Below are positions 1,165-30,900 of a DNA stretch of 64,000 nucleotides, in pieces. The notes below the pieces were generated by a model. That model made no database searches and had not been told where the DNA came from. It saw only the letters and a list, made by a program, of their open reading frames with translations. Made by a program: the position numbers and the translations under genes. The stretch is from a virus (taxonomy: Duplodnaviria > Caudoviricetes): the IMG/VR virus record IMGVR_UViG_3300028048_000096, positions 1-64,000 of that record; one strand, written 5' to 3'. Positions within the stretch are counted from its first letter, which is position 1. Each line of letters opens with the position of its first letter.

Positions 1165-1719
1165 TTAATGAGATTCTCGATATTCTCTTAATTTATAAAT
1201 TATATCTTCTAAATTCCAAGGATAACAGTCATTAGTATCCATTTCACAATGAAAGATTAAACCCTTATTAATGTCTGCGTCCCAATGCTGAGTATGAGAA
1301 TGACCACACACATTTATGAGTTGTTTTTTAAGCGGCTCCTCGCAATCAAAATTAGATACAAGAGTTGGATAGTGAGTAAAATAAAAGTTATAGCCACAAA
1401 ATTTATAGCGCGCTGCGAACCCTTCAACAATTGTATTAGGTAACTTTTGATATAACTCAATTCGCTTATCCGAATCGTGGTTTCCAATTATTATATGCTT
1501 AAAGCCGTTAAGCAACTTAAAATATTCAAGTCCTTCCTCAGTATTATTAAGCATTAAATCGCCCAATACATAAACCTCATCGCAAGATTCTACTAATGAA
1601 TTCCACCGTTTTATAATCGCTGCATTCATCTGGTCCACGTTCTCAAAACCACGAGGTTCATATAAGAATGGCTGCGCGTGGCAAAAATGTAAATCACTTG
1701 TTATAAATATATTTCCCAT
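1165..1719 (-). CDS. Calcineurin-like metallophosphoesterase
   Basis: DLHFCH, LGD, GNHD, THYP and GHSH motifs. Confidence 0.9.
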   Translation of the reverse strand: MGNIFITSDLHFCHAQPFLYEPRGFENVDQMNAAIIKRWNSLVESCDEVYVLGDLMLNNTEEGLEYFKLLNGFKHIIIGNHDSDKRIELYQKLPNTIVEGFAARYKFCGYNFYFTHYPTLVSNFDCEEPLKKQLINVCGHSHTQHWDADINKGLIFHCEMDTNDCYPWNLEDIIYKLREYRESH

Positions 1720-1720
1720 T

Positions 1721-2050
1721 CTATTTTTCTACCTCATATTTCATTATATAATCATATAAAACTCCAGCGTCAGTAATGTCCCACTTTGCTCCATCACTTA
1801 CTTCAATAACTCTCATATCTCCTCTCTCACCAAATTCTGTTTCCCAACAGAACCAATCAAGAGCCGAACCACAAATTGCGTCTTCTTTTAACTCGCACAT
1901 ATCATGAAGCAAATCATAGAATGAGTTAAGCCAACCGCTTGGTTTCCACTCCGGAGAAGCATCAAGCACATCCATTATTACATATTCTTCTTTAAGCATC
2001 TGCTCATATCTATTCACATATTTTACAAATTGTTCTTTACTCAGTTTCAT
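1721..2050 (-). CDS. Hypothetical phage protein
   Basis: 109 aa ORF, coupled to neighbours. Confidence 0.7.
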   Translation of the reverse strand: MKLSKEQFVKYVNRYEQMLKEEYVIMDVLDASPEWKPSGWLNSFYDLLHDMCELKEDAICGSALDWFCWETEFGERGDMRVIEVSDGAKWDITDAGVLYDYIMKYEVEK

Positions 2051-2513
2051 ATTCTTCTCCTAATATAGCAGTTACAATTAAATCCCAACCTTCATCATAA
2101 GTAGGCTTTTCCATTGTCTTATACATACGACGTATTACCTCTTCAGGTACAACCCTATCTCTTGCGGCCGCGCGCCGTATACATATATCAAGTGGAATAT
2201 CAAAAATAATACACGAAGTATCAATTAAAGAATCAAGTTCTTTAACTCTATTTAAAATTGCAATACGATTTTTTCTTTTTAAATTAGTGGCGTCATAAAT
2301 AACATTATATCCCTTTGCCAGCAGTCCTAAGGTAAGTTTTTCCATCTCTTCAAAAACTCTTTTAGGATTTCTTTGGTCATTAGCATCTCCCCATAATATT
2401 TCTCTTATATCATCTGAGGAAATAAGTACACATTCACCAGTATCTGCGGCCGCGCGACCTAAATATGTTTTTCCACTTCCAGGTATTCCACAAAAAAGAA
2501 TGAAATCAGCCAT
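2037..2513 (-). CDS. Polynucleotide kinase-like P-loop kinase (AAA_33)
   Basis: GIPGSGKT Walker A, SSDDIR, DATN and RxxxR lid, as in the T4 Pnkp kinase domain. Confidence 0.82.
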   Translation of the reverse strand: MADFILFCGIPGSGKTYLGRAAADTGECVLISSDDIREILWGDANDQRNPKRVFEEMEKLTLGLLAKGYNVIYDATNLKRKNRIAILNRVKELDSLIDTSCIIFDIPLDICIRRAAARDRVVPEEVIRRMYKTMEKPTYDEGWDLIVTAILGEEYETE

Positions 2514-5344: not shown

Positions 5345-5697
5345 CTTATAATCTCCTAATAAAAAAGGGAAGTTCGCAACCAAACCTCCCAGAGATAAAA
5401 TATATGTAAAAAGTCGGCGCATAAACGCGAACTTGTATTCATTTCTAAATATAAGTACCAACCTATAAGGCCGACTTCAACTTTTTGAGTCAAAAATAAA
5501 TTTATTTTTGATGTGGATACGGACATTCAACTGGTCCATGCGTTCCACCAGCTTTTCTAATTTCCATTTCATATACCTCCTTTATTATTTATTCATGGGC
5601 AATCCTCCGTTTTAAATTAATTTTAAGAGACAGAAAACGCCACACGACATGTGTGACGTTATCGAGTACCTTTTCCACACTAGTGGATAGGCTAAAA

Positions 5698-7987: not shown

Positions 7988-8063
7988 TGGTGCAGGTGGT
8001 CAGTGCTGCCCTGACTGCCTTTCGGTCCCAGGCCGAACGCTCTGCTAGTTGAGCTACACCCAC
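7988..8063 (-). tRNA. trnP: tRNA-Pro(TGG)
   Basis: TTCGG-CCTGGGA-CCGAA; atypical T-loop GGCAGCA; CCA. Confidence 0.82.
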
Positions 8064-8187
8064 ATATACATATTGTAATTTTCACTTCGAACTCTATTGT
8101 TACAATAAAGCCAGAGTTTAGGCTTGTATGGTAGAATTTTTAGCATTACCCACCTCGCGCCACGTGGAGGCAAATTCCATGCGAGGT

Positions 8188-8265
8188 TGGAGATGGCGAG
8201 AGTCGAACTCGCGTATAGAATACGGCACTTTGGCTTTAATATCCTATCGAAACCCTAACATCCCC
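8188..8265 (-). ncRNA. tmRNA tRNA-like domain only (mini-tmRNA, no mRNA-like domain)
   Basis: GGGGATGTTAGGGTTTCGA...TACGCGAGTTCGACTCTCGCCATCTCCA: tmRNA-type termini, stemless D region, G3.U70; P2 (TAGGATAT/GTATTCTA) closed by a 15 nt loop. Confidence 0.75.
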
Positions 8266-8336
8266 ATAAATTCCGTATCCTCTACTAGCCAACAGATACG
8301 GATTTGTAGTTTAACGTCTAGAGCTAGCCTGGACAA

Positions 8337-27900: not shown

Positions 27901-30900
27901 TAAAACACCATTCACCGCAAGGTTAAAACTATTTCCAGCAATAGCATTTAATGAGCCAACCAATAAGGAAGGATTAATGTGTCCATTCGCATCAAGTATA
28001 CTTGCCGCGCGAGCATATGAAGCTTGATTATATTCAACGGACTGTACTGTTGCACTTATGCGCTGGAACAAATCTTCAAACTGTGTTTTATAATTTTGAA
28101 CAGTTATTACATTTGTTTCAGGTTCATCCAAATGCCATTCAACTTCAGTAACAACTACAATTTCTTTAACTGGAGTATCTGCAATAACTCCATTTTCTCG
28201 GAAGGTTTCCCAACCAAAGAAATCAGTATCTTCAATATAGGTGCGATCACCTACATCAAAATTGTAGTTTTCATAACCCTCAAGCTCACCAATTTCCATT
28301 ACGTTAATTGTATAGGAAACTTTGGGTTGCGCGCTGGCGTTACTAACTTGAAGAGCATCCATATAATATAATTCATTATCTATATAATCTGTTGATTCCC
28401 AAGTTCCTTCTTGAATAAAACGGCTATATTTTGTGTAAAATTCTTTTTCAATCTCTGCTTTTTCTGCAAGAGCATTATCTATTTGTTGTTTTAAACCAAG
28501 AAATTGATTTTCATAATCTTTAGTAGGAACTAAACGGAAACTTTTAGTTAAACCCTCACCATCTCGAATTATTTCAAACACGAGAGCATTAGTTAAAGGT
28601 TTTGTATGCGGCTCTCCATTAACAGCATATTCTAATTCGTAATTAGTTGGAATCGCAACTATTACAATCTCATCATAAAGAATATCTTCTGTAAAATCTT
28701 TATCATTAACTTCTGATTCCCAATCTGTATTTAGTTCGGGAGAAGCTGAACTTCTGAAATTGCACTTAAATCCTTCGACGTAGTCAGATAAAACTAACTT
28801 TGTTGAGTCGGGTAATCCAGGAGTTGTTGATTTAAAAGTTGTAACAGTTATTCCATAGCTTGGGACACCATTACACTTTATATTTAGGTTATTATATTCT
28901 TCATTAATATTTGTTAATAAGCCACGATAGTTATTAACTTGAACTGCAGCCGCATAAATGTCATCAATTGCTTTGCGTAAAGCAGTGTTTTTCTCAAGTT
29001 GCTCTACATCTGGATTGGTAGCCATAAAATCATTATAAGACTGACCAACAATTGTTTCAAAATCATTTAAAGCTTTTGCATATTTCTCTGAGGCTACTTC
29101 CGCAGATTCAGCATATATATTACGATTAGCTTTCGCATGTTCAAGCGCGGCCGACGCAAGAATATATTCATCAGTTAAACTTTGAATTAATATATTCTTT
29201 TCTTTTAGTGCCTTATTGAAGTTATTTAAATCTTCGTTAAAAGCCGCCTTGTCTTTAATCAAACCTTGATTAAGGTAATAATTAAAGTTAAGAATATAAG
29301 ATTCACCGCTGGGATTTGACCTTGCTTCACCAATGTTAAGTGTTCCACTTGTTGTATAATCACTCGCTGGTTGGCCAACGATTAACTTAGTTACGAATTC
29401 ATTACTATCAATAGAACGATTAATTGAATTTAAGTTAATTCCATATTTGAATCCTGCAAAGTTGTCTTTACCTACATACTCTTTGAAGCAAACTTTCTTA
29501 ATTGGCTTATGATATTTATCAAGTTTAATGCGGCCGATTGAATCGTGTTCTACATTGATTTTTAACCAACATTCAAAAGTCTCACATAAATCTTGAAGTA
29601 TATTGAAGCAGTTGGACTTAGATGCTTCTATAGATAAGATTTTTTCACATTGCTCGTTCTTAATAAGTTCAATCTTCTCAGGATTAATATTTAAGCTACT
29701 CGCAAGAGCATTAAGTGAGCTATAAAGTTCAACTGATTCTGCGGTCATTCCATCTTCGGGTTTCAAATAGAAGTTATTAACCGTTTCAGTTTTTGCTTCC
29801 GGCGCTGAACCCACGAATATAGGATTGCCACTGGCATCTTCATAGTATTTTGTAATTTCAATATCTTCTATGTAAGTGTATTGATCGTTATTATTTGTTT
29901 TATATATAAATAAACCAATACGATTCGTTGGGTCTGCAAGCTTTGCTTGAGAAATCGAATTTTTTGCTATTGCAGTCGTATAATAATAATTTGTAAAATT
30001 TTTATTTGTTTTTGGTTTAAAACTATTATCCTTTACAGACCAAATATATTCTGTATCGTCATCTGTTTCTTTATATACATATTTATCAGAAGGGGTTTGA
30101 ACCACTCCATTGATTAAATATGTATCATGATTACTATTAAATTTACCAGTATTTATAATGACATTACCATTTTGGAAATCGCCATCAAAATCTATATAAA
30201 TCTTTTTATCATTTATTTTTTTAACACTTACTTTGCTACCATCTGCAAGTGTCTTTGGTTCTAAAGTGTATCCAGCGACTACCGCTCGTACATTAGAAGT
30301 TTGGGGATTATTTAGTGTCCCATGTTTAGTTGACGCCCATTGGTAACGTACTCTTAAAAGGAATTCGTCTCCACCAGCGATGCCACCAACAAAAGCAGCA
30401 TTATCAACAATACCGCTATTAAAAAATGGATATTGATATTTTCCTTCATTTTCTATATTGGCTGGGGTCTCTAATTCTAAAAATCCCTTAATTTGCTTTA
30501 ACTCTGAAATTTGAGCTAAAGCAGAAGCAGAAGTAAGCTCTGGAAAAGTTGTAACGCCTAAATCAAGGTATCTATCTGCATTTGTATCAACCGCTTCACT
30601 CCAACCAGTAATTCCAGTTCCATTATAGGTTGTAAAATTACTTCCATTAGTTACATAATTTTGAAGTATCGCAGATGTACCATAATGAGAATCAGAATAA
30701 TTATAAATGTCTTGAACCAATCCATCATCATAAGTAAAATGATAAGTATTAACTGTTCTACCCATGACTGGGTCATACGTTGTAAGATTATTATAAACTA
30801 ATCTGTAACCTTGAGATTCTGTATTTATAAGTCCTATGTTGATGGCGGCCGAGCCATAATTTATCACCATAGGCTCATCAAGATTATCGTATGAAATATT

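What the first reader, a model, noticed from the sequence alone, without database searches (positions are those of the whole stretch)
8188..8265. tmRNA stripped to its tRNA-like domain (78 nt, no tag reading frame)
Seen in sequence: tmRNA-type 5' (GGGGATG...GGTTTCGA) and 3' (GCGAG-TTCGACT-CTCGC-CATCTCC-A) ends, G3.U70 alanine identity and a stemless D loop. Helix P2 is closed by only 15 nt instead of ~280 nt of pseudoknots and ORF. CCA is not encoded. Established: the TLD binds SmpB, AlaRS and EF-Tu. Inference: an SmpB decoy that inhibits trans-translation, or a tag-free ribosome rescuer (possibly adding Ala without a degradation tag).
Basis: partly seen in the sequence, partly recalled or inferred. 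Interest (0 to 1): 0.85.

Follow-up and report, generated by a model that had tools for sequence, protein, structure and literature searches.

The report
Phage mini-tmRNA trimmed by a ribozyme
An uncultured 100-kb phage carries a 78-base gene for only the tRNA-like end of the bacterial ribosome-rescue RNA (tmRNA), followed directly by a self-cutting ribozyme that should make its 3' end. This kind of RNA is already known from mycobacteriophage DS6A, is common in phages, and probably interferes with the host's rescue-and-tag system.

Summary
Minus strand 8188-8265 is a 78-nt tmRNA tRNA-like domain (TLD). It has G3.U70, discriminator A, no D stem and a T arm. Helix P2 is closed by a 15-17 nt loop, and there is no tag frame and no CCA. 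Rfam tmRNA scores it 56.7 bits (cut-off 47).

It is not a one-off remnant. I collected 76 distinct short forms from viral contigs, with compensatory changes in P2, T arm and acceptor. A model built from 42 of them finds the published "TLD-only" tmRNA of mycobacteriophage DS6A. A related metagenome contig (L165) keeps the same cassette at 96.7% identity; the four changes inside the two RNAs are all structure-neutral.

New for this locus: a 56-nt theta-type HDV-like ribozyme (8132-8187) starts right after the discriminator, which explains the missing CCA.

The SmpB-decoy idea is already published for DS6A (Mao 2009, via Hudson 2014). G3.U70 and A73 are kept in 51 of 52 forms found without constraining the acceptor, which argues that the RNA is charged with alanine. 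Function was not tested here.

This scan has reported phage mini-tmRNAs and tmRNA-plus-theta-ribozyme junctions before on other DNA.

Verdict: real gene, known kind, new ribozyme-processed variant, moderate interest.

The parts
8188..8265 (-). TLD-only tmRNA gene, 78 nt. Acceptor 5' strand 8259-8265; D-loop analogue 8248-8258; P2 5' strand 8239-8247; apical loop 8224-8238; P2 3' strand 8215-8223; T stem and loop 8196-8212; acceptor 3' strand 8189-8195; discriminator A 8188.
   Evidence: RF00023 scores 56.7 bits against a cut-off of 47. Family model R1 scores 76.5 bits. Helices covary across 42 relatives. The pattern occurs in none of 100 shuffles.
8132..8187 (-). Theta-type (P4-less) HDV-like self-cleaving ribozyme, 56 nt. 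P1 8181-8187 pairs with 8152-8158; P2 8172-8179 pairs with 8132-8139; P3 8169-8171 pairs with 8159-8161; P1.1 GG 8150-8151; catalytic C 8143. The predicted cut lies between 8188 and 8187.
   Evidence: It parses segment for segment in the published theta format. The core pattern matches once in the window and in none of 100 shuffles. Rfam HDV models give weak hits of 29.9 and 26.4 bits. Twenty distinct ribozymes of the same subtype have covarying P1 and P2, mostly directly 3' of phage tRNAs.
8266..8336 (-). Conserved 71-nt leader or spacer with a 9-bp hairpin (8272-8302), between the CCA of tRNA-Asp and the TLD. It is part of the conserved cassette.
   Evidence: L165 matches window 8129-8340 at 96.7% identity, while flanking sequence is 81% identical or unalignable. 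Its role is inferred: an RNase P leader, and possibly a weak promoter of its own.
8337..8410 (-). Upstream neighbour tRNA-Asp(GUC), with encoded CCA.
   Evidence: Rfam tRNA 46.2 bits; sequence.
7991..8063 (-). Downstream neighbour tRNA-Pro(UGG).
   Evidence: Rfam tRNA 37.5 bits.
2037..2513 (-). Polynucleotide-kinase-like P-loop protein. Possible RNA end-healing partner (inferred only).
   Evidence: Pfam AAA_33 at 6.3e-23; PHROG 505 'polynucleotide kinase'.
1165..1719 (-). Metallophosphoesterase. It could open the 2',3'-cyclic phosphate left by the ribozyme (inferred only).
   Evidence: Pfam Metallophos_2; PHROG 547 'phosphoesterase' at 2.7e-38.
5636..5660 (-). Terminator-like hairpin after the last tRNA (Trp), the likely end of the tRNA-array transcript.
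   Evidence: Promoter-like sites on the same strand lie at 11647-11675, 10838-10866 and 10153-10181.

Best explanation
This is a working phage gene for a tag-less 'mini-tmRNA' of the DS6A type, made up only of the tRNA-like domain.

It lies in the phage's tRNA array. RNase P should cut its 5' end, as for any tRNA-like acceptor (inferred). The abutting theta-type HDV-like ribozyme cuts exactly after the discriminator A, as the anatomy shows; cleavage itself was not assayed. The resulting 2',3'-cyclic phosphate must be opened, possibly by the phage's kinase and phosphoesterase pair or by host enzymes. The host then adds CCA, because the phage has no CCA enzyme.

Host AlaRS then charges the RNA through G3.U70 and A73. 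The RNA binds host SmpB (the phage has none) and EF-Tu. It competes with host tmRNA for SmpB and for stalled ribosomes. Because it has no message part, no degradation tag can be added.

The net effect is suppression of ssrA tagging during infection. Ribosome release is left to tag-free back-up factors of the ArfA/ArfB type.

Confidence by layer: identity and processing anatomy about 0.9; action through SmpB and trans-translation about 0.6; the charged state about 0.6.
For: Identity:
- RF00023 scores above its cut-off.
- Model R1, built from 42 viral short forms without DS6A, scores the window at 76.5 bits and the published DS6A TLD-only tmRNA ([JN698994] 28478-28557) at 60.4 bits.

Selection:
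- 13 of 20 consensus pairs show compensatory changes.
- L165 keeps the leader, TLD and ribozyme at 96.7% identity against 81% for the neighbouring ROOL region. The two TLD changes are G.U to G-C and a loop base; the two ribozyme changes are A-U to G.U in P2 and a variable loop base.

Charging:
- In a scan that did not constrain the acceptor, 51 of 52 distinct forms keep G3.U70 and 51 of 52 keep discriminator A, while pairs 4-6 vary freely. 20 of 52 encode CCA.

Ribozyme:
- It fits the theta format exactly.
- The same subtype sits directly 3' of CCA-less phage tRNAs and of full-length phage tmRNAs (L066, L067, L152, L155, L159 and others).
- Theta ribozymes self-cleave in vitro, and only 4.5% of their tRNAs encode CCA (PMC10879173).

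Dependence on the host:
- No SmpB in this phage or in 47 other viral records matched by the scan patterns (about 42 of them with the short form only), 15 of the 47 at least 90% complete.
- None of the TLD-only records also carries a full-length tmRNA.

Literature:
- A TLD-like molecule strongly inhibits tmRNA in E. coli (Mao 2009, as cited in PMC4131195 and PMC11915505).
- Peptidyl transfer to a TLD-only tmRNA occurs in vitro (Shimizu and Ueda 2006, as cited in PMC3895274).
Against: - Nothing here shows expression, cleavage, alanylation or SmpB binding.
- The ribozyme has A1-U at the cleavage site, where published theta ribozymes have G1 paired with U. Only L067 and its near-identical metagenome relatives share this feature, and activity is unverified.
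- The Rfam HDV scores are below their cut-offs.
- A 2',3'-cyclic phosphate blocks CCA addition unless it is healed. No CCA enzyme, RtcB or DRB0094 ligase is present in this 86%-complete genome.
- According to Hudson et al. 2014 (PMC4131195), citing Mao 2009, a TLD-like molecule inhibits tmRNA whether or not it can be charged, so charging may not be needed for a decoy.
- The base of P2 departs from the usual GAC/GGAC junction (GAU/AUAC).
- The host is unknown.
Confidence: 0.6

Rival explanations
1. Uncharged SmpB sponge. The ribozyme deliberately leaves a CCA-less end blocked by a cyclic phosphate, so the RNA is never aminoacylated and acts only by titrating host SmpB away from tmRNA.
For: No CCA is encoded and the ribozyme product ends in a 2',3'-cyclic phosphate (anatomy; chemistry of HDV-like ribozymes). 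No CCA enzyme or ligase is in the phage. Hudson et al. 2014, citing Mao 2009, report that a TLD-like molecule inhibits tmRNA whether or not it is chargeable.
Against: G3.U70 and A73 are kept in 51 of 52 family members while neighbouring acceptor pairs drift; a sponge would not need them. 20 of 52 members encode CCA. The same ribozyme type matures ordinary phage tRNAs that must be charged. A kinase and a phosphoesterase that could heal the end are encoded nearby.
Confidence: 0.17
2. Productive tag-free rescuer. Ala-TLD with SmpB accepts the stalled peptide, which is then released with one or a few extra alanines and no degradation tag. This would free ribosomes for phage translation rather than blocking rescue.
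For: Alanine identity is conserved. Peptidyl transfer to a TLD-only tmRNA occurs in vitro. CDS-less tmRNAs persist with SmpB in jakobid mitochondria and some plastids. In one complete 108.6-kb phage, a stand-alone GGQ release-factor domain gene (ArfB-like) sits 341 nt upstream of its TLD-only gene, on the same strand, inside the tRNA array.
Against: No release step is known for a peptidyl-TLD. [quoted passage not shown] Only 1 of 43 TLD-only records has a GGQ-domain gene and none has Pth. This phage has neither.
Confidence: 0.13
3. A tRNA-shaped RNA whose role is unrelated to trans-translation. Examples are a processing punctuation mark in the array, or a decoy for host tRNA- or tmRNA-directed defence nucleases.
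For: It lies in a tRNA array that also holds several other anticodon-less tRNA look-alikes (earlier notes). No conserved protein partner lies next to family members; the most widespread neighbour family occurs in 5 of 76 loci.
Against: The specific tmRNA signatures (G3.U70, A73, the stemless D-loop motif, the P2 junction) are conserved far beyond what a processing site needs. Many family members stand alone, away from any tRNA.
Confidence: 0.07
4. Decayed remnant of a full-length phage tmRNA, or an attachment-site fragment, with no function.
For: Full-length phage tmRNAs with the same ribozyme exist (L066, L067), so a deletion origin is plausible historically.
Against: Both halves are kept in a closed, covarying fold. 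The cassette is more conserved than its surroundings, and the changes inside the two RNAs are structure-neutral. An att core would carry only the 3' part. The family has 76 distinct members and is strongly virus-enriched: 62 viral stretches against 7 in 185,579 species genomes.
Confidence: 0.03

Closest known systems
'TLD only' tmRNA of mycobacteriophage DS6A (Mao et al. 2009; Hudson, Lau and Williams 2014, PMC4131195; PMC11915505)
   Same: It is phage-encoded and about 80 nt long. It has an acceptor stem with G3.U70 and A73, a stemless D loop, a T arm, and a short P2 closed by a small apical element. It has no tag frame. The same covariance model hits both RNAs. The proposed action, titrating SmpB and inhibiting tmRNA, is the same.
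   Different: DS6A is a GC-rich actinophage with a different apical hairpin. The DS6A 3' flank was not examined here. The window RNA lacks CCA and has a cis ribozyme at its 3' end. It sits in a tRNA array of a 35% GC siphovirus-like phage.
Theta ribozymes, the minimal HDV-like ribozymes 3' of phage tRNAs (Kienbeck et al. 2024, PMC10879173)
   Same: It is 56 nt and P4-less, with identical segment order and conserved core letters. The catalytic C opens J4/2. The cleavage site abuts the discriminator of a CCA-less tRNA-like RNA.
   Different: The upstream RNA is a tmRNA domain, not a tRNA; the paper never mentions tmRNA. Position 1 is A paired with U instead of G paired with U. Its published descriptor would probably not have found it, since every listed example starts with G (the descriptor itself is only shown as a figure).
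CDS-less organellar tmRNAs: jakobid mitochondria (Jacob et al. 2004) and Mallomonadaceae plastids of about 65 bp (PMC11915505)
   Same: These are tmRNAs reduced to the tRNA-like domain that persist under selection together with SmpB.
   Different: They are organellar and vertically inherited, and they serve the genome's own ribosomes. No Rfam mt-tmRNA hit was found here. The phage form acts on a foreign host system.
Full-length phage tmRNAs followed by theta ribozymes
   Same: The same ribozyme subtype cuts right after the discriminator A of a phage tmRNA-type acceptor with no CCA.
   Different: Those RNAs are 396-439 nt long, with pseudoknots and tag frames called by ARAGORN. The window RNA has none of that.
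Engineered TLD fragments used in trans-translation biochemistry (Shimizu and Ueda 2006, as cited in PMC3895274)
   Same: A TLD-only RNA accepts the nascent peptide on stalled ribosomes in vitro.
   Different: These are laboratory constructs derived from host tmRNA. They are not natural genes.

Membership tests
tmRNA (Rfam RF00023), tRNA-like domain | Score at or above the family's gathering cut-off (47 bits) | tested here: met
   56.7 bits, model positions 1-374 matched end to end.
tmRNA (Rfam RF00023), tRNA-like domain | 7-bp acceptor stem with G3.U70 and discriminator A (alanine identity) | tested here: met
   Read directly from the sequence. Kept in 51 of 52 relatives.
tmRNA (Rfam RF00023), tRNA-like domain | D-loop analogue without a stem, T arm, and a P2 helix joining the 5' and 3' halves | tested here: met
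   Alignment to the model. P2 and T-arm pairs covary.
tmRNA (canonical, full function) | mRNA-like domain with resume codon, tag frame and pseudoknots | tested here: not met
   302 model positions are replaced by 9 nt. ARAGORN finds no tag peptide and no permuted form in the whole genome. No message-like piece was found elsewhere in the array.
tmRNA (canonical, full function) | Alanylation by AlaRS and binding of SmpB and EF-Tu | not testable with these tools
   Needs biochemistry. Only the identity elements are seen.
TLD-only phage tmRNA (DS6A type) | Phage-encoded RNA consisting of little more than the TLD, homologous to the DS6A form | tested here: met
   The record is viral. Model R1, built without DS6A, scores DS6A at 60.4 bits and the window at 76.5 bits.
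TLD-only phage tmRNA (DS6A type) | Inhibits endogenous tmRNA when expressed | not testable with these tools
   Known only from Mao 2009, as cited.
Theta / HDV-like ribozyme | Nested P1, P1.1, P2 and P3 helices with C as the first base of J4/2, and no P4 | tested here: met
   Segment-by-segment parse against the published format. P1 and P2 covary across 20 distinct subtype members.
Theta / HDV-like ribozyme | Cleavage site within 1 nt of the 3' end of a tRNA-like RNA | tested here: met
   P1 starts at 8187, the base after discriminator A at 8188.
Theta / HDV-like ribozyme | G1 forming a G.U wobble at the cleavage site | tested here: not met
   A1 pairs with U instead. L067 and its relatives share this. 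All published examples seen start with G.
Theta / HDV-like ribozyme | Rfam HDV family gathering score | tested here: not met
   RF00094 scores 29.9 against a cut-off of 50, and RF02682 scores 26.4 against 44. These models expect a P4 helix.
Theta / HDV-like ribozyme | Mg-dependent self-cleavage, abolished by changing the catalytic C to U | not testable with these tools
   Needs an in vitro assay.
Ordinary tRNA-Ala | D stem and an anticodon arm with a 7-nt loop | tested here: not met
   No D stem, and a 15-17 nt loop on P2. ARAGORN makes no call. RF00023 beats RF00005 within the clan.
Two-piece or permuted tmRNA | Acceptor piece and coding piece in permuted order | tested here: not met
   The order is standard 5' to 3' with P2 closed. 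The only RF04321 hit is 20.8 bits on tRNA-Pro. The ARAGORN permuted search is negative.

The most novel reading that the evidence does not exclude
The conserved 208-nt cassette (leader hairpin, TLD, ribozyme) may be a self-contained, transferable expression unit. On this reading its alanine-charged product enters stalled ribosomes with host SmpB and takes over the nascent chain without a tag. The phage would thereby convert the host's tag-and-destroy rescue into tag-free rescue, adding one alanine or several in repeated rounds. Release would be by ArfB-type factors, which a few phages even encode next to the RNA. This would be a widespread phage counter-measure against host translational quality control.
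Probability: 0.2. Interest if true: 0.75.

Novelty: new variant of a known kind. Interest (0 to 1): 0.5.

Why it matters
Trans-translation is the main ribosome-rescue and protein-tagging pathway of bacteria. TLD-only tmRNAs would be a natural, RNA-only way for phages to switch it off or redirect it.

The kind is published only as a single example (DS6A), yet it is common in phage sequence. ARAGORN does not detect it. The Rfam tmRNA model scores it above its cut-off only when the speed filters are relaxed; the default whole-window run missed it.

This locus adds three things. It gives a clean case in which the RNA's 3' end is made by a self-cleaving ribozyme. It gives a close relative showing that the RNA and the ribozyme are conserved together. 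It provides family-level evidence that alanine identity is under selection.

That last point turns 'decoy or rescuer?' into a simple test: compare chargeable and non-chargeable variants on a tagging reporter.

Tried and rejected
- The whole-window Rfam run at the gathering threshold missed the RNA because of speed filters. ARAGORN misses it and all 41 distinct relatives tested.
- One viral scan used a mis-spaced loop pattern and returned nothing; this result is uninformative.
- L140 was the only relative found through the 562-aa neighbouring protein. It shares the tRNA order Pro-Lys-Arg...Ser-Ser-Trp, but the contig ends at a tRNA-Tyr upstream of Pro and its full record is not held. It says nothing about presence or absence.
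- I searched for a conserved protein partner next to 76 family members. No family occurs in more than 5 loci, and the ones found are unrelated (WhiB, capsid, protease and others).
- The following were not found in this phage: SmpB, CCA enzyme, DRB0094 ligase, RtcB, GGQ domain, Pth.
No message-like piece, permuted form or second tmRNA-type hit exists in the genome.
- The att-site remnant reading is rejected because both halves are present and covary.
- No cultured relative or host could be named. The best topoisomerase match is 34% identical. GC content is 35%.
- The complex-prediction tool does not take RNA and was not used.

Full report
WHAT IS THERE

The window is the first 64 kb of a 100,766-bp IMG/VR virus record that is about 86% complete. 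The record has 35% GC. It has long ORFs under the standard code and siphovirus-type tail genes, topoisomerase II and a DnaB helicase. It has no close cultured relative.

Between about 5.6 and 11.1 kb the minus strand carries an RNA gene array. ARAGORN and Rfam find at least eleven tRNAs there, plus a 604-nt ROOL RNA. Promoter-like sites lie upstream and a terminator-like hairpin follows the last tRNA.

The finding lies in this array, between tRNA-Asp (CCA encoded) and tRNA-Pro.

On the minus strand, 8265 to 8188 reads as a tmRNA tRNA-like domain:
- a 7-bp acceptor stem with G3.U70 and discriminator A;
- an 11-nt stemless D-loop analogue with GG and UUCGA;
- an 8-9 bp P2 helix closed by 15-17 nt;
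- a 5-bp T stem with a 7-nt loop;
- no CCA.

Rfam's tmRNA model aligns it end to end at 56.7 bits (cut-off 47, E 8.6e-21). 302 model positions, covering the pseudoknots and the message, are replaced by 9 nt.

A strict pattern for this architecture occurs once in the window and never in 100 shuffles. ARAGORN does not call it. Rfam with default filters on the whole window missed it. The genome holds no other tmRNA-type hit, no permuted form and no message-like piece.

A RIBOZYME MAKES THE 3' END

The base after the discriminator (8187) is the first base of a 56-nt P4-less HDV-like ribozyme (8187 to 8132). The Rfam HDV models give only weak hits (29.9 and 26.4 bits). However, the sequence parses segment for segment in the format of the published theta ribozymes (Kienbeck et al. 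2024; supplementary tables):
- a 7-bp P1;
- a one-base J1/2;
- an 8-bp P2;
- a 3-bp P3 around the conserved U-CC-ACGU loop;
- the GG of P1.1;
- a six-base linker;
- CUAA, whose first base is the catalytic C (8143).

The conserved core occurs once in the window and in no shuffle. A viral scan for this core returned 20 distinct ribozymes, all with fully paired but unrelated P1 and P2 sequences. Most sit directly behind the discriminator of CCA-less phage tRNAs.

Theta ribozymes self-cleave in vitro, and only 4.5% of their tRNAs encode CCA. That matches the missing CCA here.

There is one departure: position 1 is A paired with U, where published examples have G paired with U. Only L067 and its relatives share this.

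A second theta-type ribozyme lies at 9620-9676, about 10 nt before the ROOL RNA.

IT IS A FAMILY, AND A PUBLISHED ONE

A pattern for short TLD forms found 62 viral contigs, giving 41 distinct sequences of 65-81 nt. Aligned with the window RNA, 13 of 20 consensus pairs show compensatory changes.

A covariance model built from these sequences scores the window at 76.5 bits. It also picks out one 80-nt site in mycobacteriophage DS6A at 60.4 bits.

Hudson, Lau and Williams list DS6A as 'TLD only'. They note that a similar molecule, chargeable or not, strongly inhibits tmRNA, perhaps by titrating SmpB (Mao et al. 2009). The 2025 tmRNA database paper repeats this and adds CDS-less plastid and mitochondrial forms.

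So both the kind and the decoy idea are in the literature. No paper I could search describes the family at large, or any link to ribozymes.

This scan has reported phage mini-tmRNAs in many other genomes, and theta ribozymes behind phage tmRNAs. My results agree with those notes and were obtained independently.

FAMILY-LEVEL FACTS THAT BEAR ON MECHANISM

1. A second scan fixed only the D-loop motif and the T arm and left the acceptor free. It gave 52 distinct forms with a paired acceptor. 51 keep G3.U70 and 51 keep discriminator A, while pairs 4, 5 and 6 change freely. 20 encode CCA. A wobble pair held this tightly argues for selection on AlaRS recognition.
2. None of 47 viral records matched by the scan patterns encodes SmpB, including 15 that are at least 90% complete. 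This phage does not either.
3. In those records the short form is the only tmRNA-type gene; about 39 score above the Rfam cut-off.
4. The form is virus-enriched. There are 62 stretches in IMG/VR against 7, all on MAG contigs, in 185,579 species genomes.
5. No protein family is a regular neighbour.
6. In one complete 108.6-kb phage, a 120-aa stand-alone GGQ release-factor domain gene (ArfB-like) lies 341 nt upstream of the short form, inside the tRNA array.

A CLOSE RELATIVE KEEPS THE CASSETTE

A metagenome scan for a tmRNA-type 3' end followed by the ribozyme core found L165. It carries the same 78-nt RNA and ribozyme. L165 matches window 8129-8340 at 96.7% identity. The adjacent ROOL region is 81% identical, and sequence beyond the ribozyme's last base does not align.

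Inside the TLD there are two differences. One turns the G.U pair in P2 into G-C. The other is a loop base that moves toward the family consensus. Inside the ribozyme there are also two. One turns an A-U pair of P2 into G.U. The other lies in a variable linker position. In the 71-nt leader, one change keeps a hairpin pair as U.G and another breaks its end pair.

The conserved unit is therefore leader plus TLD plus ribozyme, and the changes inside the two RNAs preserve structure.

The same scan and the viral scan also found several lineages of full-length phage tmRNAs with tag frames followed by theta ribozymes.

HOW IT MOST LIKELY WORKS

Shown by anatomy and comparison: this is a selected RNA gene of the DS6A type, and its 3' end is defined by a cis ribozyme.

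Inferred from established knowledge:
- RNase P makes the 5' end.
- The cyclic phosphate left by the ribozyme is healed. A polynucleotide-kinase-like protein and a metallophosphoesterase are encoded 6-7 kb away.
- The host adds CCA, because no phage CCA enzyme, RtcB or DRB0094 ligase was found.
- AlaRS charges the RNA.
- The RNA binds host SmpB and EF-Tu.

It would then compete with host tmRNA for SmpB and for stalled ribosomes. With no message part, it cannot add the degradation tag. Rescue would fall to tag-free back-up factors.

Three questions remain open:
- whether the nascent chain is actually transferred, as it is in vitro (Shimizu and Ueda 2006);
- whether the RNA is merely a sponge;
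- whether charging is needed.

The conserved alanine identity tilts me toward a charged RNA. Hudson et al. 2014, citing Mao 2009, say a TLD-like molecule inhibits tmRNA whether or not it can be charged, and that statement, together with the blocked 3' end, keeps the sponge reading alive.

VERDICT

This is a real gene of a known kind, in a variant with ribozyme-made 3' end that I did not find in the literature. It is of moderate interest.

Noticed in passing
window 9620-9676 (-), next to ROOL RNA at 9006-9609 (-): A second theta-type HDV-like ribozyme with G1, a 7-bp P1, the conserved core and CUAA ends about 10 nt before the 5' end of the 604-nt ROOL RNA (279.5 bits). It would cut off the upstream leader and stay attached to ROOL. 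L165 aligns across this region at 81% identity.
   Followed up: partly
window 8515-8653 (-) and 10897-11037 (-): Rfam aligns two tRNAs that carry 70-nt and 60-nt insertions in the anticodon loop. This is far too short for group I introns.
   Followed up: no
L150:2353-2715 (-) and L150:1931-2012 (-) (complete 108.6-kb phage G042): A 120-aa stand-alone GGQ release-factor domain protein (ArfB-like) lies 341 nt upstream of that phage's TLD-only tmRNA, on the same strand, inside a tRNA array. It is the only GGQ-domain gene among 43 TLD-only records.
   Followed up: partly
L066:1097-1492 plus ribozyme from 1493; L067:3227-3665 plus ribozyme from 3666; also L152, L155, L156, L159, L161, L166-L168, L170: Full-length phage tmRNAs with tag frames and no CCA are followed at once by theta-type ribozymes, in several unrelated lineages. 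The theta ribozyme paper does not mention tmRNA.
   Followed up: partly
window 8224-8238 (-); L008, L020, L024, L036, L052, L073, L104, L109, L165: A sub-family of short forms shares an apical loop motif (A-rich run, then CC, then RAAGUG) although the surrounding stems differ. Another sub-family has a 3-4 bp hairpin with a tetraloop there. A stop triplet often sits at the start of the loop, but I did not test whether this exceeds chance.
   Followed up: no
L022:4872-6234 and L035:1925-3920: In some small phages the TLD-only gene lies between the prohead protease and the major capsid gene. It is therefore probably expressed late, with the structural genes.
   Followed up: no
window 8266-8336 (-): The 71-nt spacer ahead of the TLD is as conserved in L165 as the RNA itself, although a different tRNA precedes it there. 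It holds a 9-bp hairpin and a weak sigma-70-like pair of hexamers (8 of 12 by eye). The cassette may therefore carry its own promoter.
   Followed up: partly
window 1165-2513 (-): A polynucleotide-kinase-like gene and a metallophosphoesterase gene lie close together just beyond the tRNA array. This resembles the kinase-plus-phosphoesterase halves of bacterial RNA end-healing enzymes. No ligase was found.
   Followed up: partly
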